A stretch of 64,000 nucleotides of DNA from Bacteroidia bacterium (GTDB lineage Bacteria > Bacteroidota > Bacteroidia > 2-12-FULL-35-15): contig JBDTFR010000105.1 of assembly GCA_039937835.1 (NCBI GenBank), positions 28,036 to 92,035 of the forward strand. The letters are read 5' to 3'. Both the position numbers and the translations under genes were made by a program. A model generated the notes under the pieces. The model made no database searches, had not been told where the DNA came from, and worked only from the letters and a program-made list of their open reading frames with translations. Positions 1 through 12,679 of the stretch are shown one piece after another (positions within the stretch are counted from its first letter, which is position 1; each line of letters opens with the position of its first letter).

Positions 1-920
1 TAGTTTCATTTATTTTATCAGAAGCTTCAATTAAATTTTCGCCTGAACGTTTTACAATATTTAAGGTAATTACGTTTTTCCCTTCTAAGCGCGCATAACT
101 TTCTTGTTCTTTATTACCGTCTACTACCTGTGCTATATCTTTTAAATATAAATGAGCACCAGTAGGCGAATTAATAATTAGATTACCAATTTCGCTTACT
201 TTCTTAAATTCTCCTTGAATAGTAAGATTACGTTTCATACCATCCATCGGAACCAAGCCACCAGATATATTCATGTTTTCGTACTTCACGGCTTGCTCAA
301 TATCTCTTAATGTAAGCGAAGCAGCTTGTAGTTTATACATGTCTACATTAATTTGTATCTCTCTCTCTAAATCACCCACCATTACTACTTTAGAGATGTA
401 CCTCATGGCTTCTATTTTATCTTTTAAATCATCAGCATATTGCTTTAATTTATTAAGATCCATGTCGCCGGCTAAATTAACATACATAATAGGTAAGTCA
501 GAAAAAGCCACTTCCATCACATTTGGTTGGCGAGTAAGGTCTTTCGGCAAATCGGTTGCCGCTTTATCTACCGCATCTTTCACTTTTTGTTTGGCAATAG
601 CAACATCTACATTGGTATTAAATTCAACCGTTATAACTGATACATCTTGTAAAGAAGTTGAATTTAATTTTTTTACTCCTGATATAGATTTTAATTGTTT
701 TTCAATGGGCTTTGTAACTAAGTTTTCAATATTGGTAGGTGAGTTACCAAAATATACGGTATTGATATAAATAGTGGGTACAACGATGTCTGGAAAACTT
801 TCTTTGGGAATACTGTTATAGGCAGATATACCCATAAGTGTAATAATAACGGTAAGCACATATATACTTATTTTATTATCAATTGCCCAGCTGGAGGGCT
901 TAAATTGTTTAAAGTTCATA
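1..920 (-). CDS. Efflux RND transporter permease subunit (AcrB/CzcA family), N-terminal part; the gene runs off the window start
   Basis: A minus-strand ATG at 918-920 opens a frame that stays open to position 1. The translation begins MNFKQFKPSSWAIDNKISIYVLTVIITLMGISAYNSIPKESFPDIVVPTIYINTVYFGNSP..., the typical RND N-terminus (TM1 followed by a periplasmic loop). It lies directly downstream of the MFP gene. The listed + ORF 273..770 is antisense to it. Confidence 0.85.
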
Positions 921-977
921 ATGGTATTTTTAATTCCGTTTTAATTGAAGGAAAATAAATTTGTTTAGGGTTTTTCT

Positions 978-2090
978 TTATTTAAAAGTGATGGGATCGC
1001 CCTGATTAATTAGGTCATAACCTGCTGTAATTAATAAATCACCTTCTGCTAATCCACTAGTAATTTCAGCCTTACCGTTATATTCTTGGCCTAGGGTTAC
1101 AATTCTTTTTTCTGCTTTATTATTTTTTGCAATAAATACAAAAGAAGCATTGCTTTCATCTTTCTGTATGGTTCTTACTGGTATGGCGATAAGTGGTTTT
1201 GGCGATTGAAAATCATTAATATTCAACTTGGCTACCATATTTGGATGGTATTCTTTTTTGTTATCTAATAATACTTCTACCGTAAAAGAGCGAGTACTAT
1301 TATTAATTGCTCTGGAAACAAAATTAACTTTCGAAACAATTGAATCATCGTTATCTGGAAAGTGTACAATTACTTCATTTCCTTTTTTGATTTTAGAAGC
1401 ATAGCTTTCTGATACATCTGCTTTTACTTTTAGGTTAGAAAAATTGATTACACGAATGGCTGGCATACCAGGTGCCACTAGTTGACCCATTTTAATATCA
1501 ATAGCATCCACTGTTCCTTCAATTGGTGAAATAATTTTACTCATGCGTATTTGTTCTTGTAAGGAACCCATCTTTTTCTCTATACTTTCTTTATTTGTTT
1601 TTGCTTGAAGAAATTGTATTTCGGTACCAATTTTTTGATCCCATAGGTTTTTTTGTTTTTGATAAATTTGATTCACCAAGTTTATATTTGTTTGCAAGTC
1701 GGCTATACTTTCAGAAAGCGCACGTGTATCTGTTTCTGCAAGTACTTGGCCTTTGGAAACCCTATCACCTACACTTACATTTATTTTATTAATCGTACCA
1801 GGTATTTCGGTACTTAAGGCTACGTTTTCTTCTGCATCTATTCTACCTTGTACCGCAATATAGTTTTTAAATATTTCCGGCTTTATGGGAACTGCCAATA
1901 CCGATATTGCATTTGCAGCAGCGGTTGAAGGCAAATCCGCTTCTAATACTGCAATTTTTGCTTTTATGTCAACCTCTTGTTTTTTTAACTCTTGTAATTG
2001 TGCTTTTTTACCTTCTTCACTTTTATTGCTTTTACTGCCACAAGCAGCAAGTAATAATGTTATTGACGAGATAAGAACTAATTTTTTCAT
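978..2090 (-). CDS. Efflux RND periplasmic adaptor (membrane fusion protein, HlyD/AcrA family), lipoprotein
   Basis: The lipoprotein signal MKKLVLISSITLLLAACGS is followed by a coiled-coil hairpin and beta-barrel segments. The gene sits between TolC-like and RND genes on the same strand. Confidence 0.85.
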   Translation of the reverse strand: MKKLVLISSITLLLAACGSKSNKSEEGKKAQLQELKKQEVDIKAKIAVLEADLPSTAAANAISVLAVPIKPEIFKNYIAVQGRIDAEENVALSTEIPGTINKINVSVGDRVSKGQVLAETDTRALSESIADLQTNINLVNQIYQKQKNLWDQKIGTEIQFLQAKTNKESIEKKMGSLQEQIRMSKIISPIEGTVDAIDIKMGQLVAPGMPAIRVINFSNLKVKADVSESYASKIKKGNEVIVHFPDNDDSIVSKVNFVSRAINNSTRSFTVEVLLDNKKEYHPNMVAKLNINDFQSPKPLIAIPVRTIQKDESNASFVFIAKNNKAEKRIVTLGQEYNGKAEITSGLAEGDLLITAGYDLINQGDPITFK

Positions 2091-2137
2091 GTGTATTTTA
2101 ATTTAATAGCGTGTATTGTATATGATATAGTAGTTAA

Positions 2138-3508
2138 TTATTTTATTACGTTATTACCATTTGCCTTATCGTAATCGATTTTAGCAACTAAGGCATCAAA
2201 CATGGCATTGTAATAATTTGTTTGTGCTTCTTTTAATGCAGTTTCAGCAGTAACCAACTCTAAGTTAGAGCCAACACCTTGATCATATTTTATTTTAGCA
2301 ACTCGTGCTACATCTTCTGCTATGGTAATATTTTCTTTTTGTATGTCCAGTGAAGCCGATGCATTTTTTAGCATAGTACTAGTAGATGCTAGTTCTAAGT
2401 CAATCGATTTTCTTATAAAATCCATATTGTTTTCTGCCTCCATCACTTTTATTTTAGCTTGTTGATAACGAGCATTCCGTTGTAAGCCAGTAAATATTGG
2501 CAAAGAAACTTTTGCTCCGATAAGAGCAGTTGGGTACCATTTTTCACCTATTTTGAAAATATCAAAATTCTCACGTTGTGCTGTCCCGTTAATGCTACCA
2601 TAGGCAGCAGCAGTGGGTAAGTACGCTACTTTATTTCTTTTAAAATCAAGCGCGGCTAGTTTATATTGTACTTCAAATAAATTATATTCTACTCGCTTCG
2701 TATAATCAAATTTATCTACTGCTGCAGTAGCGGCTACATCTAATTTTACTGTTTCTAATTTATCTGTCAATATTAATTTGGTATTCATTTCCATGCCTAT
2801 TTGATATTTTAATAAATAGGTTCCCAACTCTAATAATCGTCTTACTTTATCTTGTTCTACCAGTAAACTATTGTAGGTAACGGTAAGACGATCGTAATCA
2901 ATTTTCTCTACAAATCCATTTTCTAAAAATACTTTTGTATCCTCTTTCGTTTTTTTTAATCGAACAATGTTTGCCTCCATTAATTTTATACGTTCCTGAT
3001 TAATTAGCACCGTATAATAGGCTTTGCTAACCAAAGCAGTAGTTTCAATCTTCGTACGCTCAGTAGATTTTTTGGAAAGTTCCACAAATACTTTAGCGGC
3101 TTTTAATCCTAACAGGTATTCACCGCTAAATAATAATTGACTAGCATCCGCACCTACAGTGCCTTGGTATTGAGTCCCAAACTTAACAGGAATAAAGGTA
3201 CCTGGCTTCCCCCCAAAAAATTCAGCTGGTATTAAAGAAGTTGGAATTTGCAAAAAGTCTTTTACATCAAAACTCGTATTGATTTGAGGAAGACCTAATC
3301 CCGTTATTTCATTTACCTTTTGTTTTGCAACTTGTTCTTCGAGCACTGCATTTTTTACATCTTTTTGATTTTGCATGGCATAATCAATGGCTTGTTGTAA
3401 TGAAAAAGAAACCGAAGCACTGTCACCTGTTTGTGAAAAGACGGCAGATGAAACGGTTAACCCTATTAGTAATACTATTATACTTTTCATACTGTTTGAA
3501 TAATTCAA
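2138..3508 (-). CDS. TolC-family outer membrane efflux protein
   Basis: A signal peptide precedes 456 aa with the two-repeat alpha/beta architecture typical of OEP/TolC. It is the first structural gene after the TetR gene in a TetR-OMP-MFP-RND operon. Confidence 0.85.
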   Translation of the reverse strand: MNYSNSMKSIIVLLIGLTVSSAVFSQTGDSASVSFSLQQAIDYAMQNQKDVKNAVLEEQVAKQKVNEITGLGLPQINTSFDVKDFLQIPTSLIPAEFFGGKPGTFIPVKFGTQYQGTVGADASQLLFSGEYLLGLKAAKVFVELSKKSTERTKIETTALVSKAYYTVLINQERIKLMEANIVRLKKTKEDTKVFLENGFVEKIDYDRLTVTYNSLLVEQDKVRRLLELGTYLLKYQIGMEMNTKLILTDKLETVKLDVAATAAVDKFDYTKRVEYNLFEVQYKLAALDFKRNKVAYLPTAAAYGSINGTAQRENFDIFKIGEKWYPTALIGAKVSLPIFTGLQRNARYQQAKIKVMEAENNMDFIRKSIDLELASTSTMLKNASASLDIQKENITIAEDVARVAKIKYDQGVGSNLELVTAETALKEAQTNYYNAMFDALVAKIDYDKANGNNVIK

Positions 3509-3562
3509 AGTTTATATTTAAATTTTTATTTTAATTTATTATTTAATTTTTGATGCAAACGC

Positions 3563-4177
3563 TTAATCTTCTTCTATAATTTCTTTGTATTTGTTAATCA
3601 ACTTATGCCCCTTTATAGTACAAATGCCATGAAGGAAATAATCTAAAGAAGCCAATTGTACTTCTGCCATTTTAAAAGTATTGGGTGAAAATATTTCTGA
3701 ATTAAAACCCATTTCCATTTCTGCCATTCGTAACGTAGCAATAATTTTTGTGTTGATATCTGGGCGTACTAGTCCTTGTTTTATGCCAGTGTTTAAGCTA
3801 TCTTCTACCATTTTACTGATGCATTCTTCTTTAAATTTTTTAAAATCGTTCCAACTTTTAGGATAATATTTTTGAAGATCATAAAACAGGTTTGGATTAA
3901 TTCTTGTAAATAAAGTAGACATGTGTTTCATGATACTAAAAATCTCTACAATTATATTATCAGATTCTGACTGCATTTTCTTGCAGATAGCTTCTTCATG
4001 ATGCAACTTATTTTTAAGCAAAGTTTCTACCACGTCATTCTTATGGCTATAAAATTGATAAATGGTTTTTTTTGAAATAGATAAATATTTTGCAATATCA
4101 TCCATTGTAATGCTTTTGATGCCGTACTTAAAAAACAGTTCTTCTGCTCCTTGCAATATTCTGTCTTTTGGTTCCAT
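3563..4177 (-). CDS. TetR/AcrR family transcriptional regulator
   Basis: The N-terminal HTH reads ILQGAEELFFKYGIKSITMDDIAKYLSISKKTIYQFY (TetR_N). The protein is about 200 aa and sits at the head of the efflux operon. Confidence 0.85.
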   Translation of the reverse strand: MEPKDRILQGAEELFFKYGIKSITMDDIAKYLSISKKTIYQFYSHKNDVVETLLKNKLHHEEAICKKMQSESDNIIVEIFSIMKHMSTLFTRINPNLFYDLQKYYPKSWNDFKKFKEECISKMVEDSLNTGIKQGLVRPDINTKIIATLRMAEMEMGFNSEIFSPNTFKMAEVQLASLDYFLHGICTIKGHKLINKYKEIIEED

Positions 4178-6312: not shown

Positions 6313-6921
6313 TTGATTTTATTGCTTGCAACTATCTTTACCGTTAATGGATTAGCACAAAATGCGGAAGCTGATCGGGAAAAAGTTATTGTAACCAGAA
6401 ATAGTGATGATGTCAAAGGGCTTAGAAGAGCGGGAGATGTGAGTGCAGAAACAAGCAGAATATATGGAAAACAATCAAAACTAAGAGAAGAAACAACAAT
6501 TAAAATCAAAAAAGAAGCTGCAAAAATTGGAGCTTCAATTGTATTTATTCAAGTTGATGAATTTGCTATGACTCCAATAAACAATGTTAATATGATTGGC
6601 GTTGCATATTTTCAGAATAATAATGATTCTATATTAAACAAGGTTGTTACAAATAATCAGAGCATTACTGACGCTGACTGGGAAATGATTATTGTAACAC
6701 GTAATAAAGACGATACTAGCGGATATAAAAGAATAGGAGATGTAAGTGCAGAAACAAGCAGATTGTATGGGAAACAATCGAAGCTAAGAGAGGAAACAAC
6801 AATTAAGATCAAAAAAGAAGCTGCAAAAATTGGTGCTTCAATTGTATTCATTCAAGTTGATGAATTTGCAATGAGCCCAATAAATAATATTAATATGATT
6901 GGCGTTGCATATAGGAAATAA
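6313..6921 (+). CDS. Secreted tandem-repeat protein, two BhsA/YdgH-like (DUF1471-like) domains
   Basis: A TTG start gives the signal-like N-terminus MILLLATIFTVNGLAQN. Two repeats of about 101 aa follow, each containing GDVSAETSR.YGKQSKLREETTIKIKKEAAKIGASIVFIQVDEF...NMIGVAY. This resembles the ...A...A.K.GA....I.......G.A.aYK pattern of DUF1471. An ATG 14 nt upstream (6299) is in another frame and stops after 5 codons. Confidence 0.5.
   Translation: MILLLATIFTVNGLAQNAEADREKVIVTRNSDDVKGLRRAGDVSAETSRIYGKQSKLREETTIKIKKEAAKIGASIVFIQVDEFAMTPINNVNMIGVAYFQNNNDSILNKVVTNNQSITDADWEMIIVTRNKDDTSGYKRIGDVSAETSRLYGKQSKLREETTIKIKKEAAKIGASIVFIQVDEFAMSPINNINMIGVAYRK
6380..6918. repeat. Tandem direct duplication (2 x about 303 nt, roughly 90% identical) inside the CDS
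   Basis: Copy 1 (about 6380-6615) and copy 2 (about 6683-6918) align with an offset of exactly 303 nt (for example GATGTGAGTGCAGAAACAAGCAG at 6436 and GATGTAAGTGCAGAAACAAGCAG at 6739). The minus-strand ORFs 6294..6509 and 6657..6851 are antisense copies of the same repeat. Confidence 0.85.
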
Positions 6922-7121
6922 ACTTCATATAGCAACTGTACATAGTGTCGAGCCTTATTCGTGCTTCTAATGGACAGAAAGATTGAATATTACAAAGAAG
7001 CCACATTCAATAATGAAAAAATAAAAAGTAATTGAACTTATGTTTGTTCTGAAAATGGTCGTTATTAAACAGACTCAAGTTGTTGCTGTTAGAAAAAATG
7101 AAAGTGTTTCAATAATTATTT

Positions 7122-7901
7122 ATGAGTTACCCGAAATTTTTTAAAAATAATGTAAATTCAGATATTTATATTGGTACAGGTGCGGGAGCTAAATTATTGA
7201 AAGATATAGAAGATGCCCAAACTTCAATTAGAATTATATCTCCATATCTGAATCGCAGCTACGTTGAAAAACTAATTAATTTAAAAGAAGCAGGCAAGGA
7301 TGTAAGTTTGATCACATCTGATTTAATAGAAGATTTTTATGATAATAGAAATCTTCGAAAGTTGATTATACAAAATAGATCGACGATTAGTGAAGCTAAA
7401 GTAAAGCGTGATTTTTTGATTAAATGTAAAAATTGGATGCTAATTTTTTCATCGATTATTCCCATTTTGTTTTTTATTGATTTGTATATTGGCAGGGAAA
7501 CTAAGATTTTATATTTGATTATATTTTCACTTTTATATGCTATTGCTTTATGGATGATAAATTCAAAAATTAAGAGGTTGCGGATTTACAGATATTCCTA
7601 TGAGACTTTATTTCCTATTAAAGTATTTCTGACACCTAATGCTAAGGATTACTTTAATCATAGTACTTACTTCATTCATTCTAAAGTTTATGTTATAGAT
7701 AATAAAGTAGCGTACTTAGGTTCTTTAAATTTTACATTCGGTGGATTTCAAACAAATTTCGAGACTCGAATTAGAGTTTCCGATGCAGAAACAATAAAAG
7801 GAATTAATTATATGTTTAATGAATTGTTTTATTCTAACGAAAATTCGTTTGTTGAGATTGAGCAACTTGCTAAAAGAGTTTACAGAGAACCAATAAATTA
7901 A
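7122..7901 (+). CDS. Phospholipase D / Nuc-like single-HKD protein with an internal two-helix transmembrane insertion
   Basis: The N-terminus resembles the first strands of the Nuc/PLD fold (IYIGTGAGAKLLKDIEDAQTSIRIISPY...AGKDVSLITSD). The C-terminus has a perfect H-x-K-x4-D-x6-G-S-x-N motif (HSKVYVIDNKVAYLGSLN). Between them are two hydrophobic helices (WMLIFSSIIPILFFIDLYIG and ILYLIIFSLLYAIALWMINS). Confidence 0.65.
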   Translation: MSYPKFFKNNVNSDIYIGTGAGAKLLKDIEDAQTSIRIISPYLNRSYVEKLINLKEAGKDVSLITSDLIEDFYDNRNLRKLIIQNRSTISEAKVKRDFLIKCKNWMLIFSSIIPILFFIDLYIGRETKILYLIIFSLLYAIALWMINSKIKRLRIYRYSYETLFPIKVFLTPNAKDYFNHSTYFIHSKVYVIDNKVAYLGSLNFTFGGFQTNFETRIRVSDAETIKGINYMFNELFYSNENSFVEIEQLAKRVYREPIN

Positions 7902-9162: not shown

Positions 9163-10200
9163 TTAAAAAGAACTGATGGGTGATGATCTAGGGTTTCCTG
9201 CTTCATCCATTCCAAAACTAGCACTTTTTGATTTAGAAGCCCTGCTTAGTTTAAATGACAAAGTGATTTCATGTGCATTCGCTTGTACAGCAACATTCTT
9301 TAAGTTTGAGTTAACCATATCGTAACTATACCCTAGTGTAAAATTTTTATGCTCAAAACCAACTAAAAAGGCGATGGCATCATGCGTTCTGTACCAAGCG
9401 CCAATCACCAGTTTTGCCTGCTCATTAAAACGATAATCTACATACACACCAGTGGCAGTTTCTAAATTTCCGCCTTGTGAATTCATTCTAAAATTCGGGC
9501 TAACATCAATTTTATTATCTCCAAGAATTTTTATTCCGCCCTGATAAGCAAATCGCAAAGGAGTAGCAGCATCTTCACCTAAAAAGGATTCATTCGGTTT
9601 GTTAAGATGATAACCCGCAATTCCTGCATACGCATTTAACTTCGATTTTTCTCTGCTAGGATTGTAAAACCACATTAAGCCAAATCCTAGTTCGGGGTGA
9701 TTCTCACTTTTATTAAGTCCAAATTCATTAGAAGGATTTGAAGCGTTGTATGCGCCCATTACATATTGGTAATCAAACGTCTGTTTACTGATGTCTACTG
9801 ATTGCTGCACAAAGCCGCCCATTAGCGCTAATGTTAAAATATTATTTGGTGCAATTTCTTGATTATAATCAATAGCAAGTGCGGCATCAAAAACTTTGAA
9901 TGCACCCATTTTATCGTTTATGATAGAGGCGCCGATATCCAACTTACTTTTCCCTTCATTAAAAAACAAGGGATACATACCAGTAAACGAAAAGGTTTTA
10001 TATCCGTTATCAATTGCAGCAAACTGACTGCGGTAATTAAGGATGGCTTTAATATCCGTATTAACACCCATTATGGCAGGGTTAATGCGTAACGGGTTGG
10101 AGTATGATTGTGAAAATCGCATATCTTGCGCAACAAGTTCAGCTTGGTTGAATAAATTAAACAGAAGTAGGTTTAAGAAGAGTATGTATATTTTTTTCAT
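9163..10200 (-). CDS. Type IX secretion system membrane protein, PorP/SprF family
   Basis: A signal peptide is followed by QDMRFSQSYSNPLRINPAIMG and NYRSQF, the hallmark N-terminus of PorP/SprF beta-barrels. The gene lies immediately downstream of a type-B CTD cargo gene. Confidence 0.8.
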   Translation of the reverse strand: MKKIYILFLNLLLFNLFNQAELVAQDMRFSQSYSNPLRINPAIMGVNTDIKAILNYRSQFAAIDNGYKTFSFTGMYPLFFNEGKSKLDIGASIINDKMGAFKVFDAALAIDYNQEIAPNNILTLALMGGFVQQSVDISKQTFDYQYVMGAYNASNPSNEFGLNKSENHPELGFGLMWFYNPSREKSKLNAYAGIAGYHLNKPNESFLGEDAATPLRFAYQGGIKILGDNKIDVSPNFRMNSQGGNLETATGVYVDYRFNEQAKLVIGAWYRTHDAIAFLVGFEHKNFTLGYSYDMVNSNLKNVAVQANAHEITLSFKLSRASKSKSASFGMDEAGNPRSSPISSF

Positions 10201-10240
10201 AAGAAGAGTTATAAAATTCAGTTCGTTTTATTTTTTTGAG

Positions 10241-12679
10241 TTAACGGATCAAATTGATCAGACCTTGTTTATTGATTACTTCACCGGTGGTGAGAACGCC
10301 TTTGATGTGATACACATAAGCACCCTTAGGTAATTCTTCACCACCATTTTGTCTTCTTCCATCCCACCCCAATTCAATGTTTTTTGAATTGAAAATTTGT
10401 TCGCCCCATCGATTAAAGATGTTACATTCAAAATTTTGGATGCCTTCTCCTCTCACATAAAAAATATCACTGATTCCATTACCATCAGGCGTAAATGCGG
10501 TTGGCACCCAAAAATTGGGAGCAATAACGGTAATTAATATAGTATCCTTATTTACACAACCAAAAATATCTGTTCCTGTTACAAAATAAGAGGTCGTTTT
10601 TTCTGGGTTAGCAACTGGATTGTATATGCCCGCATTGTTAAGCCCTGATTCAGGAAACCAATTGTATTGAATTGCTCCTTTGGCATTGAGCTGAATGCTG
10701 GAACCCTTTGTTATGGTATCATCCATACCTGCATTCACAAGCGGTAGCTGATGAACTATAATGGTAACTTCATCTGTAACTTGAGGACAGCCACTGCCCG
10801 TTACGGTTATCGTATAAGTGGTGGTGCTATCTGGTGTTGCAACAGGATTGGATAAGTTTTTATTGTTTAGGTGCTTTGCTGGACTCCAAGAATATCGTTG
10901 CCCTTTTACCAGTCCTGTTCCCAACTGAATACTGTCATGCCTACAAATTGCTTCATCTATTCCTGCATATGCTTTTAATGGAGCAAGCATGGTTACAAAA
11001 ACAGTATCGTTATTTTTACATCCCGTAGTCATATTGGTAACGGTTAACATATAAGGGGTAACTGAAGCAATGGGTGCAGCTGTTGGATTTGAAATAGACA
11101 GACTGCTAAGTGTAGCGCTGGCAAACCAGGAATACGTATTTCCAGGTTGTGGTAAGCCACCAAGTTTAACAGTTGTATTGGCGCAAATAATAGTATCGAA
11201 GCCAGCAAAAGCTTTTGGAAGCGCATTAATTTGAATTGTTTTTACGGCACTGGTAACGCAGCCAAATTGATTAGTAACGGTGAGTGTAATTGTTTTGGTT
11301 CCACTTTGCTGATAGCTAATTCCCTGTGGTGTTTGAGCGGTAGAAATTTCAGGGATTGCATTTTTTCCAAAATCCCATGCATAAGAAACACCAGCAGTTG
11401 CGCTGGATGAGTTTATAAAATTAACCGACTCTTTTGCACACACGGGTGTATTAGAAGAGAAATCGGAAGTAGGAGAAGGGTTAATGGTAATGATGTTTGT
11501 AACCGTGTCTGATTTAGTTCCATTGGATACAATGTGTGTCACTAATTTTGCACCAGTAATGTTATACACGATTCCAGTAGGGTCAGATAACGTAGAAGTT
11601 GCTGGAGTTGCACCACGACCAAAGGTCCATGAATGAGTTATCCCAACTGTTCCAGAAGCAACACTGTAAAAATTTTCAAGTTGACCCAAACAACCTGGTT
11701 CAGAAGATGTAAAACGAGCATCCAAATGGTTGGTATTAATCGTATTGCTCCATTTTATAATTTGTCCCTCCGCACCCACTGCATAAGCGAGTTTGGCATT
11801 TACAAAATCAACGGACATGAATCGAGCTATACCAAAAATTAATTGCGACCAAGTATTCCCACCATCATTTGTACTTAAAATAATTCCATAACTTGAACTG
11901 GGATTGCCTCCCACTGTAAAACCATTATTATTATCTATAAAGTCAATCTTTCCGAGCCATTCTGAAGTACCACTAGGTGTTATATTCCAGGAAGCACCAG
12001 CATCCGTCGTTTTACTGATAACACCATCTCCTCCACAAAGAAACCCAGTGTTTAATGATGTAAATATAATTTTAGCATGGGATCCGCTATAACCGCCAAA
12101 TACAGATGTTGGCCAAGTTGCACCCCCATCAGTAGTTTTATATACTTGTCCGTCATAATCAGCAATGTAGCCAACGCTTGGAGTAGTAAAAAGTATAGAA
12201 TAAATTATATTCCCTGTAGTAATATTTAACTTTGTCCATGAAAAACCTCCATCAATGGTTTTATATACACTACCCGAAATGCCGCTTTGACCTCCTGTAA
12301 CATAACCTGTAGTCGCATCTTGAAACCAGCAGGATCTTAAATATTCAGGAGCTATTGACATTGGTATCCAGTTAATACCACCATCCGTGGTTCTAAGTGC
12401 AGCTCCATTGTCACCAACAGCGAATCCCCTATTTACATCAACAAAAAAAGTATAATACAGATTTTCGTTTGTACCTGTGATTTGTTTAATCCATGTAGAT
12501 CCACCATCAATGGTCTTTAGCATGGTACCGTTTGAACCACAGGCATACACAACCGTTGGAGTAAGAGCTGTTACACAAACCAAACCCTCGTTTGTGCCAC
12601 TTGTTAAATTCGTCCATGTTTGTGAAAAAGAAATAGTTTGTGAAAATAGATAGAGGACAATAAGTAGTGTTTTTTTCAT
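10241..12679 (-). CDS. T9SS type-B sorting-domain cargo protein: Ycf48/BNR-like beta-propeller, PKD-like domains and a gliding-motility-type C-terminal domain
   Basis: A signal peptide is followed by repeated xTxDGGxTW/SW motifs (TIDGGSTW, TTDGGINW, TIDGGFSW, TTDGGATW, TTDAGASW, TNDGGNTW) and then PKD-like Ig segments. The C-terminus reads FTPDGNGISDIFYVRG...IFNRWGEQIF...GWDGR...YVYHIKG (type-B CTD). Confidence 0.8.
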   Translation of the reverse strand: MKKTLLIVLYLFSQTISFSQTWTNLTSGTNEGLVCVTALTPTVVYACGSNGTMLKTIDGGSTWIKQITGTNENLYYTFFVDVNRGFAVGDNGAALRTTDGGINWIPMSIAPEYLRSCWFQDATTGYVTGGQSGISGSVYKTIDGGFSWTKLNITTGNIIYSILFTTPSVGYIADYDGQVYKTTDGGATWPTSVFGGYSGSHAKIIFTSLNTGFLCGGDGVISKTTDAGASWNITPSGTSEWLGKIDFIDNNNGFTVGGNPSSSYGIILSTNDGGNTWSQLIFGIARFMSVDFVNAKLAYAVGAEGQIIKWSNTINTNHLDARFTSSEPGCLGQLENFYSVASGTVGITHSWTFGRGATPATSTLSDPTGIVYNITGAKLVTHIVSNGTKSDTVTNIITINPSPTSDFSSNTPVCAKESVNFINSSSATAGVSYAWDFGKNAIPEISTAQTPQGISYQQSGTKTITLTVTNQFGCVTSAVKTIQINALPKAFAGFDTIICANTTVKLGGLPQPGNTYSWFASATLSSLSISNPTAAPIASVTPYMLTVTNMTTGCKNNDTVFVTMLAPLKAYAGIDEAICRHDSIQLGTGLVKGQRYSWSPAKHLNNKNLSNPVATPDSTTTYTITVTGSGCPQVTDEVTIIVHQLPLVNAGMDDTITKGSSIQLNAKGAIQYNWFPESGLNNAGIYNPVANPEKTTSYFVTGTDIFGCVNKDTILITVIAPNFWVPTAFTPDGNGISDIFYVRGEGIQNFECNIFNRWGEQIFNSKNIELGWDGRRQNGGEELPKGAYVYHIKGVLTTGEVINKQGLINLIR

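What the first reader, a model, noticed from the sequence alone, without database searches (positions are those of the whole stretch)
7122..7901. Single-HKD Nuc/PLD-fold protein with a two-helix transmembrane hairpin inserted into the catalytic domain
The 259-aa protein has an N-terminal segment that aligns with the first strands of Nuc-type PLD nucleases (IYIGTGAGAK...SIRIISPY...GKDVSLITSD). Its C-terminus carries a textbook HxK(x4)D(x6)GSxN motif. The roughly 50-residue linker found in Nuc is replaced here by about 100 residues containing two strongly hydrophobic helices. Single-HKD PLDs must dimerise to form an active site, so a membrane-embedded hairpin would tether a dimeric nuclease or phospholipase at the membrane. 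That is reminiscent of mitoPLD/Zucchini but has a different topology. The gene sits in a short accessory-looking stretch next to a recently duplicated secreted BhsA-like protein. Lipid-headgroup hydrolysis, membrane-associated nuclease activity, or an effector-type role are all possible; no system assignment can be made from sequence alone.
Basis: partly seen in the sequence, partly recalled or inferred. Interest (0 to 1): 0.55.

Follow-up and report, generated by a model that had tools for sequence, protein, structure and literature searches.

The report
Membrane-embedded Nuc-type PLD enzyme family
This gene encodes a small Nuc-like phospholipase-D-fold enzyme with two membrane-spanning helices spliced into the loop beside its catalytic histidine; it belongs to an undescribed family that often rides on conjugative elements in Bacteroidota, and whether it cuts DNA or lipid is still open.

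Summary

It is not a frameshifted two-HKD synthase. About 250 sequence clusters share the same ~255-aa architecture. The hairpin keeps its position and hydrophobicity but not its sequence. The positive-inside rule and the absence of any signal peptide place both halves of the enzyme in the cytoplasm.

No partner gene is conserved. The family is rare, with 180 hits in 185,579 species genomes, mostly Flavobacteriia. It is repeatedly tied to mobile elements: 17 of 80 loci lie next to a relaxase and coupling protein or to tra genes of ICEs, and other members sit beside integrases. These contexts occupy several deep branches of the family tree. The window copy is a lone chromosomal gene among housekeeping genes.

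Best reading (about 0.45): a homodimeric nuclease confined to the inner face of the membrane, acting on DNA there. Main rival (about 0.3): a lipid-directed PLD. I found no published description. I rate it a new variant of a known kind, of moderate interest.

The parts
7122..7901 (+). CDS of the 259-aa membrane-embedded single-HKD PLD protein (stop codon 7899-7901)
   Evidence: ORF list. Pfam PLDc_2 E=2.8e-19. An identical protein is annotated in NCBI as 'phospholipase D-like domain-containing protein [Bacteroidia bacterium]'.
7122..7385 (+). N-terminal half of the PLD fold (aa 1-88): strands b1-b4 with the conserved YIGxGAG (Y16, G18, G22) and S40-P41-Y42 loops and Q84
   Evidence: AF2 secondary structure. 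The profile aligns positions 18-72 to Nuc 19-65 and NucT 19-74.
7386..7586 (+). Inserted helical hairpin (aa 89-155): a K/R-rich stalk, TM1, a short GRETK loop, TM2 and a K/R-rich return
7434..7493 (+). TM1 hydrophobic core (aa 105-124)
   Evidence: Kyte-Doolittle mean 2.12. Family median Hessa insertion energy is -0.77 kcal/mol.
7503..7562 (+). TM2 hydrophobic core (aa 128-147)
   Evidence: Kyte-Doolittle mean 2.21. Hessa insertion energy is -1.4 kcal/mol in the window protein and +2.17 at the family median.
7587..7898 (+). C-terminal half of the PLD fold (aa 156-259), including the conserved Y156/Y158/Y160 strand and K167
   Evidence: AF2 strands E156-162, E166-169, E189-192, E196-200 and E214-219. 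The profile aligns positions 178-234 to NucT 102-158.
7677..7730 (+). Catalytic HxK(x4)D(x6)GSxN motif (H186, K188, D193, G200, S201, N203)
   Evidence: Regex match at residue 186. All six residues are 100% conserved in 163 members.
7761..7763 (+). Invariant E214. From my own recollection of the Nuc structure it corresponds to the Glu that hydrogen-bonds the catalytic His; no tool result confirms that role.
   Evidence: 100% conserved. It falls within the stretch aligned to the Nuc, NucT and Zucchini sequences.
7881..7898 (+). Family-specific C-terminal motif Y-x-E-P-x-N (Y254, E256), beyond the Nuc core
   Evidence: Aromatic in 91% of members at Y254 and E in 83% at E256.
7039..7046 (+). Candidate Bacteroidota-type -7 promoter element TATGTTTG, 76 nt upstream of the ATG. 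This is weak evidence only.
   Evidence: It is the only TAnnTTTG match in the 200-nt upstream intergenic region. The sigma-70 scan is at or below shuffle expectation, and no intrinsic terminator was found.

Best explanation
The gene encodes a member of an undescribed subfamily of Nuc/NucT-type single-HKD PLD phosphodiesterases. A two-helix transmembrane hairpin has been inserted at the tip of the b4 hairpin, in the loop that leads into the catalytic His.

Shown:
- The catalytic residues are intact.
- The Nuc fold is complete.
- The hairpin is membrane-competent and conserved only in its hydrophobic character.
- Sequence features predict N-in/C-in topology, so both halves of the enzyme are cytoplasmic.
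- No partner gene is conserved.
- Many members sit on conjugative or integrative elements.

Inferred:
- Like all single-HKD PLDs, two copies pair to build one active site, which would give a four-helix membrane anchor.
- The enzyme is a nuclease held at the cytoplasmic face of the inner membrane, away from the nucleoid.
- It acts on DNA present at that surface, meaning DNA entering or leaving through the envelope (conjugative T-strand, competing elements or phage genomes).
- It therefore serves its mobile element as an exclusion, defence or establishment function.

The window copy is a solitary chromosomal descendant of such a gene.
For: Fold and nearest relatives are nucleases.
- Foldseek: NucT E=3e-9 and Nuc E=8e-8 on top.
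- Family profile against PDB: NucT 3.9e-12, then Zucchini 3e-9, then a bacterial PLD 3e-8, then Nuc 6e-8, with PssA only 1e-3.
- Pfam RE_NgoFVII is above its cutoff.
- The best PADLOC and NCBIfam partial hits are DrmC and NucT, ahead of cardiolipin synthase.
- The characterised single-HKD, ~150-residue-core PLDs compared in PMC5714352 (Nuc, NucT, Zucchini, BfiI) are all nucleases.

Catalytic set: H186, K188, D193, G200, S201, N203 and E214 are invariant in 163 members.

Membrane anchoring and cytoplasmic orientation.
- Hydropathy is membrane-grade.
- Median K/R counts are 4 before TM1, 1 in a 6-residue loop and 3 after TM2; 0 of 153 members has an N-terminal hydrophobic segment.
- The TM region is 14% identical against 37% for the core, so it behaves as a generic anchor.
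- One relative, P0199, lacks the hairpin but has an N-terminal TM helix on a linker of about 45 residues. This suggests tethering itself is what is selected.

Mobile-element link.
- 17 of 80 genome loci have a DUF5712 relaxase, a type IV coupling protein, TraM or TraN within 8 kb. The PLD gene is usually directly downstream of the coupling protein.
- The 32%-identical P0041 lies between a mob/ParB module and the tra operon.
- P0003 (63% identical, sister to the window protein) and P0047 abut tyrosine integrases.
- The hairpin-less tandem variant P0084 lies beside a TraG-type ATPase and toxin-antitoxin genes.
- These contexts fall on several deep branches of the tree.

Precedent: SNIPE shows that a membrane-bound cytoplasmic nuclease can discriminate foreign DNA purely by location (PMC13190303). 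Nuc is encoded on conjugative plasmid pKM101, and NucT is a membrane-associated nuclease implicated in transformation (PMC5714352).
Against: No activity data exist, and sequence cannot separate nuclease from lipid PLD chemistry.

The soluble domain is not basic: median net charge is +1 and ranges from -13 to +13. Nuclease-type PLDs are described as having a positively charged groove (PMC5714352).

Topological reasoning works against easy DNA access. The hairpin leaves the fold in the b4-b5 loop right before the catalytic His, and the two-fold axis of the dimer must be the membrane normal. This implies the active site faces and lies close to the membrane, which suits lipid head groups better.

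Conserved Tyr156, Tyr158 and Tyr160 next to TM2 could form an interfacial aromatic belt.

Defence genes are only sporadic among the neighbours. The family is absent from the phage, plasmid and IMG/VR collections. The window copy and the Chryseobacterium clade sit among ordinary chromosomal genes.
Confidence: 0.45

Rival explanations
1. It is a lipid-directed PLD. A minimal, membrane-embedded homodimer presents its active site to the inner leaflet. It hydrolyses or exchanges phospholipid head groups, for example cardiolipin or PG/PE turnover as was claimed for MitoPLD. Its role would be membrane remodelling or a membrane-damaging effector.
For: The hairpin is inserted in the loop immediately before the catalytic His. 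With the dimer axis perpendicular to the membrane, the active site should face the bilayer (inference). The interfacial segment between the hydrophobic cores and the fold is short (aa 98-104 and 148-155). Y156, Y158, Y160, R96 and K167 next to the membrane are highly conserved. The soluble domain is near-neutral. By single-sequence phmmer the top PDB hit is a bacterial phospholipase D, 7e0m (E=1e-7). Weak hits to cardiolipin synthase models also appear.
Against: From my own knowledge of the ClsA/B/C, PssA and classical PLD families, which I did not survey here, proven lipid PLDs, Cls and Pss enzymes have two HKD motifs in one chain. [quoted passage not shown] This protein has only the minimal Nuc core, with 149 of 159 NucT residues aligned. 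Cls and Pss models score far below their cutoffs (24 against 290 bits). A relative with an N-terminal TM helix on a long flexible linker (P0199) and a soluble tandem form (P0084) would not hold the site at the bilayer. The recurring position beside relaxase and coupling-protein genes is unexplained by lipid metabolism. A constitutive inner-leaflet phospholipase with no regulator or immunity partner would be hazardous to the cell.
Confidence: 0.3
2. It is a latent toxic effector, acting on either substrate, that is switched on by membrane perturbation such as phage injection, depolarisation or mating-pair formation. The hairpins would serve as the sensor, giving a single-gene abortive-infection or exclusion module.
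For: It is a stand-alone gene with no conserved partner. It has MGE and toxin-antitoxin-rich contexts. The hairpins flank the active-site loop and so could gate access (inference).
Against: The TM segments are poorly conserved (14% identity) and the periplasmic loop has a median of 6 residues, which leaves little to sense with. Hairpin-less and N-terminally anchored relatives exist. Nothing in the data indicates toxicity.
Confidence: 0.1
3. It is an annotation artefact: a frameshifted two-HKD cardiolipin or phosphatidylserine synthase, or a soluble PLD whose hydrophobic stretches are buried core elements.
For: JGI pipelines label relatives 'phosphatidylserine/phosphatidylglycerophosphate/cardiolipin synthase-like enzyme'.
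Against: There is one motif per protein in every member, with a conserved ~255-aa length. No second HKD lies in adjacent frames, and the flanking ORFs are unrelated genes. AF2 places the segments in a protruding helical hairpin at high confidence. Hessa insertion energies are membrane-grade against +11 for the rest of the protein.
Confidence: 0.01

Closest known systems
Nuc (IncN plasmid pKM101) and NucT (Helicobacter pylori): single-HKD PLD-family nucleases
   Different: NucT was crystallised without its N-terminal signal peptide and is reported as a periplasmic, membrane-associated protein (PMC5714352). That Nuc is likewise exported to the periplasm is my recollection of the pKM101 literature. 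This protein has no signal peptide and is predicted to be cytoplasmic, held by an internal TM hairpin of about 65 residues. It also has a family-specific C-terminal YxEPxN tail and an extra b-hairpin. NucT equivalog models score 18-28 bits against cutoffs of 211-351.
Zucchini / MitoPLD (PLD6)
   Different: From my own knowledge, Zucchini is anchored by one N-terminal helix in the mitochondrial outer membrane and has a zinc-binding insertion. Here the anchor is an internal hairpin in the b4-b5 loop, and the protein has a single cysteine, so no zinc site is possible. One rare relative, P0199, does have a Zucchini-like N-terminal TM helix.
SNIPE (PD-lambda-1), a membrane-bound nuclease that cleaves phage DNA during injection
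   Same: It is a single-gene, inner-membrane-anchored protein with a cytoplasmic nuclease domain. It sets the precedent for telling self from non-self by location (PMC13190303).
   Different: The fold and architecture are unrelated: an N-terminal TM segment, DUF4041 and a GIY-YIG nuclease. There is no sequence or structural similarity, and no DUF4041-like targeting domain is present here. The resemblance is a functional hypothesis only.
Bacterial cardiolipin synthases (ClsA/B/C) and PssA
   Same: They belong to the PLD superfamily, are membrane-associated and act at the cytoplasmic face. Weak C-terminal HKD similarity is seen.
   Different: From my own knowledge, those enzymes have two HKD motifs per chain, about 400-480 aa, and N-terminal TM helices in ClsA. 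Scores are far below the family cutoffs.
DISARM DrmC and other defence-associated PLD nucleases (DpdK, PLD-helicase fusions, SauUSI)
   Same: The best PADLOC hits are DrmC models (E=1e-10), covering the HKD half only. SauUSI's PLD domain is a structural neighbour.
   Different: No full-length match exists (NF038319 scores 30 against a cutoff of 133). No DISARM or Dpd partner families were detected among the neighbours scanned. None of those proteins is known to me to carry an internal TM hairpin.

Membership tests
PLD (HKD) superfamily | HxK(x4)D(x6)GSxN catalytic motif | tested here: met
   There is one motif at H186-N203, invariant in 163 members.
PLD (HKD) superfamily | PLD alpha/beta fold; Pfam PLDc_2 above gathering score | tested here: met
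Nuc/NucT-type single-HKD nucleases | Single HKD on a minimal core of about 150 residues that superposes on Nuc and NucT | tested here: met
Nuc/NucT-type single-HKD nucleases | N-terminal signal peptide and periplasmic location | tested here: not met
   No N-terminal hydrophobic segment occurs in the window protein or in any of 153 members. The positive-inside rule places the domain in the cytoplasm.
Nuc/NucT-type single-HKD nucleases | Curated NCBIfam NucT equivalog score | tested here: not met
   NF010491 28.1 against 225, NF010490 25 against 211, NF010492 18.5 against 297.
Nuc/NucT-type single-HKD nucleases | Homodimer forming one active site; nuclease activity on DNA or RNA | not testable with these tools
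   No multimer prediction, model coordinates or biochemistry are available. The natural tandem fusion P0084 is consistent with pairing of two such domains.
Zucchini / MitoPLD | Single N-terminal TM anchor preceding the PLD domain | tested here: not met
   The anchor is an internal hairpin at aa 105-147, and the N-terminus is hydrophilic.
Zucchini / MitoPLD | Zinc-binding (CHCC) insertion | tested here: not met
   The protein has only one cysteine, C102 (sequence).
Cardiolipin synthase / phosphatidylserine synthase (two-HKD PLD transferases) | Two HKD motifs in one polypeptide | tested here: not met
   One motif per protein across the family, and the flanking ORFs are unrelated.
Cardiolipin synthase / phosphatidylserine synthase (two-HKD PLD transferases) | Curated family score (TIGR04265, NF009107) | tested here: not met
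   24.4 against 290 bits and 22.2 against 787 bits.
DISARM DrmC | Full-length match to a DrmC model, with drmA, drmB and methylase neighbours | tested here: not met
   NF038319 scores 30.1 against 133. PADLOC DrmC hits cover only aa ~160-240. No DISARM families were detected among the neighbours scanned in the window or in related loci.
BfiI / NgoFVII-type PLD restriction endonucleases | N-terminal PLD domain plus a C-terminal B3-like DNA-recognition domain and a cognate methyltransferase | tested here: not met
   PF09565 scores 27.2 against 23.8, but only over the shared PLD core at aa 158-235. The protein ends 24 residues after the core, and no methyltransferase is adjacent.
SNIPE (PD-lambda-1) | DUF4041 plus a GIY-YIG nuclease behind an N-terminal TM segment | tested here: not met
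   No such Pfam or PADLOC hit appears. The architecture is described in PMC13190303. Only the principle of a membrane-tethered cytoplasmic nuclease is comparable.

The most novel reading that the evidence does not exclude
This would be a second, structurally unrelated class of location-based nuclease. A PLD-fold homodimer is stapled to the cytoplasmic face of the inner membrane by hairpins that flank its active site. Integrative conjugative elements carry it next to their relaxase and coupling-protein genes. It would destroy linear DNA emerging from the envelope, such as rival elements or phage (entry exclusion or defence), or process the element's own transferred strand, while sparing the nucleoid because of where it sits.
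Probability: 0.25. Interest if true: 0.75.

Novelty: new variant of a known kind. Interest (0 to 1): 0.5.

Why it matters
Splicing a transmembrane hairpin into the active-site loop of a soluble enzyme fold is an unusual way to make a membrane enzyme. Here it defines a coherent family of about 250 clusters that no curated model captures.

If the nuclease reading is right, the SNIPE principle of recognising foreign DNA by location would extend to a different fold and to conjugative elements. That would give a handle on entry exclusion or establishment functions in Bacteroidota ICEs, which I understand to be poorly characterised.

If the lipid reading is right, it would be the first single-HKD bacterial lipid PLD that I am aware of. 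It would also be a minimal model for the long-running Zucchini/MitoPLD dispute over nuclease versus lipase activity.

Either outcome can be tested directly with one small protein and one point mutant (H186N).

Tried and rejected
1. A conserved partner gene. The window's upstream DUF4156-like ORF is unrelated to the gene upstream of the 55%-identical homolog (E=4.9). Clustering neighbours across 80 loci found none shared beyond genus-level synteny. Among 146 neighbours from 40 diverse loci, no Pfam family recurs more than 3 times.

2. A known defence system. PADLOC and NCBIfam give only partial, sub-threshold HKD-half hits. Defence genes near relatives are sporadic: one AbiE pair and one Cas1/Cas2.

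3. Phage or plasmid carriage. There are no tblastn hits in INPHARED or PLSDB and none in IMG/VR. BFVD gives only generic PLD folds.

4. Fusion partners as a clue to substrate.
- The apparent cold-shock-like N-terminus of P0179 is not supported (E=15 against CspA; no Pfam hit).
- The Cys-rich N-termini of P0049, P0081 and P0100 reach only E=0.09 for a double zinc ribbon.
- The DUF2809 fusion in P0070 is uninformative.

5. A large soluble sister family. P0084 turned out to be nearly a singleton.

6. Recent horizontal acquisition in the window. Low GC is explained by amino-acid composition, since GC3 equals that of the neighbours. No flanking repeats, tRNA or integrase were found.

7. Literature. 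Eight full-text searches found no description of an internally TM-anchored Nuc-like PLD. Some apparent 'PLD' hits were the string 'pLDDT'.

8. Unavailable resources. The AFDB50 fold library was offline, the Zucchini structure papers are not held, and model coordinates cannot be retrieved. The orientation of the active site relative to the membrane therefore remains topological reasoning.
Full report
**Observation.** Window 7122..7901 (+) is an ORF of 259 aa that begins at the first start codon after an upstream stop. Pfam PLDc_2 matches at E=2.8e-19 (69.7 bits against a gathering score of 27) in two stretches, with PLDc and RE_NgoFVII also above their cutoffs. Two segments, aa 106-124 and 129-147, have Kyte-Doolittle means of 2.1-2.2. 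On the Hessa scale their insertion energies are +2.1 and -1.4 kcal/mol, while the best window elsewhere in the protein is +11.3.

**Structure.** An AlphaFold2 model built on 30 homologs is confident, with mean pLDDT 90.4 and pTM 0.81.
- The order of elements is E13-18, H23-30, E35-39, H45-56, E60-66, H70-81, E82-88, then a long helical hairpin (H90-110, H112-123, H127-152).
- After the hairpin come E156-162, E166-169, a loop, and the HKD strand E189-192 with the rest of the fold.
- The hairpin on its own matches only generic or designed helical hairpins. Foldseek agrees with this ranking.
- The family profile aligns positions 18-72 with Nuc 19-65 and NucT 19-74, and positions 178-234 with Nuc 88-133 and NucT 102-158. 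About 106 positions therefore stand where Nuc and NucT have 23-28 residues.
- Rare hairpin-less relatives show the exact splice point. P0084 reads ...ALIHK-PDQ-YNHEY... and P0199 reads ...LIDCAKKENHEYAY... where the window protein has ...KLIIQNRST-[aa 89-155]-IYRYSYE.... The two helices sit at the tip of a pre-existing b-hairpin, so the net insertion is about 65 residues.

**It is a family, not an artefact.**
- The word-indexed search found 51 homologs, nearly all 240-280 aa with full-length coverage.
- The exhaustive profile search found 249 clusters (50% identity) at E<=1e-30, again almost all ~255 aa.
- In 163 members H186, K188, D193, G200, S201, N203 and E214 are 100% conserved.
- Family-specific conserved positions are Y16, G18, G22, S40-P41-Y42, Q84, R96, Y156, Y158, Y160, K167, N212, R218, G250, Y254 and E256.
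- The hairpin keeps its place and hydrophobicity. Family median insertion energies are -0.8 kcal/mol for TM1 and +2.2 for TM2, against +11 for the soluble parts. Its sequence is not kept: pairwise identity is 14% there and 37% in the core.
- Variants have no TM helices (P0084, a tandem two-HKD fusion, and P0198), one N-terminal TM helix instead (P0199), or about four (P0107).

**Topology.**
- None of 153 standard-length members has an N-terminal hydrophobic segment.
- The 12 residues before TM1 and after TM2 carry a median of 4 and 3 Lys/Arg. The connecting loop is 6 residues at the median with 1 Lys/Arg.
- By the positive-inside rule both PLD halves are cytoplasmic, and only a few residues reach the periplasm.
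- This differs from NucT, which carries an N-terminal signal peptide and is reported as periplasmic (PMC5714352), and from Nuc, which I recall from the literature is also exported.

**Genomic context.** In the window the gene lies between asparaginyl-tRNA synthetase, a DUF4156-like ORF, a quinone-oxidoreductase-like gene and a PorP/SprF gene. It has no integrase, tRNA or flanking repeats. Its GC is 27% against 33% for the window, but GC3 (0.22) matches the neighbours (0.21-0.24). The low GC therefore reflects amino-acid composition and not foreign origin.

Across 185,579 species genomes only 180 relatives were found. They are mostly Flavobacteriia, with stray copies in Salinisphaera, Cloacimonadota and Sulfurovaceae. 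Clustering the neighbours of 80 loci shows no universal partner.

Three context patterns appear:
- (a) About 35 Chryseobacterium species share a syntenic chromosomal site: UvrD-like helicase, BD-FAE esterase, PLD, esterase, DUF3037, HipA-like kinase.
- (b) Seventeen loci from marine Flavobacteriaceae carry conjugation genes within 8 kb. The usual order is MobA-like, DUF5712 relaxase, type IV coupling protein, then PLD, on one strand with a ~97-nt gap. In other loci the PLD lies next to TraN and TraM.
- (c) The remaining contexts are varied.

Additional look-ups extend the mobile-element link to distant branches:
- P0041 (32% identity) lies between a relaxase, coupling protein and ParB module and the tra operon.
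- P0003 (63% identity) and P0047 abut tyrosine integrases.
- P0051 sits among toxin-antitoxin, Fic and Tad-pilus genes.
- The tandem variant P0084 lies next to a TraG-type ATPase, an MNT-HEPN pair and PemK.

In a neighbour-joining tree these mobile contexts occupy several deep branches, the Chryseobacterium copies form one derived clade, and the window protein is sister to the integrase-adjacent P0003. The simplest reading is an ancestrally mobile accessory gene that has been fixed in some chromosomes.

It is not found in phage, plasmid or IMG/VR collections. Defence genes near it are only occasional.

**Mechanism.**

Shown:
- an intact catalytic set on a Nuc-type core;
- a membrane hairpin;
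- a predicted cytoplasmic orientation;
- stand-alone gene organisation;
- an association with conjugative and integrative elements.

Inferred:
- homodimerisation, which every single-HKD PLD needs (PMC5714352) and which the natural tandem fusion mimics;
- the identity of the substrate.

The nuclease reading rests on four points:
- The nearest relatives by every sequence and structure measure are nucleases.
- The characterised single-HKD minimal PLDs compared in PMC5714352 are all nucleases.
- The gene sits beside DNA-transfer machinery.
- SNIPE sets the precedent that a membrane-bound cytoplasmic nuclease can act selectively on DNA entering the cell (PMC13190303).

The existence of a relative tethered by an N-terminal helix on a long linker suggests that tethering, rather than precise placement at the bilayer, is what matters.

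Against the nuclease reading:
- The soluble domain is not basic, with median net charge +1.
- A topological argument points the active site at the membrane. This argument is mine and partly relies on my recollection of the Nuc strand order, so it is not a computed result. In the Nuc fold b1-b4 are parallel and the active site lies at their C-terminal ends. The hairpin leaves from the end of b4, just before the catalytic His. The dimer two-fold axis, which passes through the active site, must be the membrane normal. The catalytic cleft should therefore face the membrane, flanked by the two hairpins and only about 10 A above the hydrophobic boundary. That geometry favours lipid head groups.
- The conserved tyrosines next to TM2 would fit an interfacial belt.

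I put the membrane-confined nuclease at about 0.45, a lipid-directed PLD at about 0.3, a perturbation-gated toxic effector at about 0.1, and an artefact at about 0.01.

**Comparison with what is known.** The protein is a member of the PLD superfamily and structurally of the Nuc/NucT/Zucchini group. It fails the defining features of each named family.
- It has no signal peptide, unlike Nuc and NucT.
- It has no N-terminal anchor or zinc site, unlike Zucchini.
- It has one HKD motif, not two, and scores far below the Cls and Pss cutoffs.
- It has no DISARM partners and scores below threshold for DrmC.
- It has no DNA-recognition domain, unlike BfiI and NgoFVII.
- Its fold is unrelated to SNIPE.

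Eight literature searches found no description of a Nuc-like PLD with an internal transmembrane hairpin. The searchable library is incomplete, so this is absence of evidence only.

**Verdict.** I classify it as a new variant of a known kind: a coherent, uncurated, mobile-element-associated subfamily of single-HKD PLD enzymes with a membrane hairpin spliced into the catalytic domain. I score interest at 0.5. The architecture is unusual and the hypothesis is easy to test, but the chemistry belongs to a well-known superfamily and the function is unresolved.

Noticed in passing
window 6313-6921 (+): The ORF upstream of the PLD gene is a single 202-aa protein with a signal-like N-terminus, made of two tandem ~100-aa repeats. 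The 243-nt direct repeat at 6367-6609 and 6670-6912 is 84% identical. It matches Pfam DUF4156 (32.7 bits against a cutoff of 28.9); no BhsA-type family appeared among its hits. It is not conserved next to PLD homologs.
   Followed up: partly
window 7040-7144 (+), seen as L086 9919-10023: A public gene call places a 34-aa ORF overlapping the PLD start codon. It has no Pfam hit and is probably spurious. A lone Bacteroidota-type -7 box (TATGTTTG, 7039-7046) lies at its start.
   Followed up: no
window ~1-4177 (-): A TetR-family regulator (3563-4177) sits beside an outer-membrane efflux protein (2138-3508). In the matching public contig (L086) these are followed by a membrane-fusion protein and an AcrB-type RND pump, making an ordinary efflux operon.
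   Followed up: no
window 9163-12679 (-): A PorP/SprF type IX secretion membrane protein (9163-10200) is followed by an 812-aa protein (10241-12679). The matching gene in L087 carries BNR/PKD/CHU_C domains, so it is a likely T9SS cargo and partner pair.
   Followed up: no
L002-L079 (Chryseobacterium loci), e.g. L006 10973-11356 and L061 11483-12256: A DUF3037 protein (127 aa) and a HipA_2-type kinase (257 aa) form a tightly conserved gene pair two genes downstream of the PLD gene in ~30 Chryseobacterium species. It looks like a two-gene module of unknown role.
   Followed up: no
L040 and L059 (Arenibacter hampyeongensis contig NZ_PIOB01000003.1; also L042 and L076): Two paralogs of the PLD gene, 81% identical, lie ~23 kb apart on one contig. 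One is directly after the ICE coupling protein and before an RND efflux cargo. The other is beside a 1,521-aa protein with no Pfam hit, two DUF488 proteins and a dual-OB (DuOB) protein.
   Followed up: partly
L096 1-6248: The hairpin-less tandem two-HKD variant P0084 lies in a conjugative-element fragment with a TraG-type P-loop ATPase, an MNT-HEPN pair and a PemK toxin gene.
   Followed up: partly
proteins P0049, P0081, P0100: Three divergent family members share an N-terminal CxxC...SxENY...CxxC extension that looks like a zinc ribbon. Pfam DZR reaches only E=0.09, so its role is unknown.
   Followed up: partly
L036 7663-7998 and L051 7663-8001: In two marine Flavobacteriaceae a 112-aa DUF413 protein overlaps the PLD start by one base, which suggests translational coupling. 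This was seen in only two loci.
   Followed up: no
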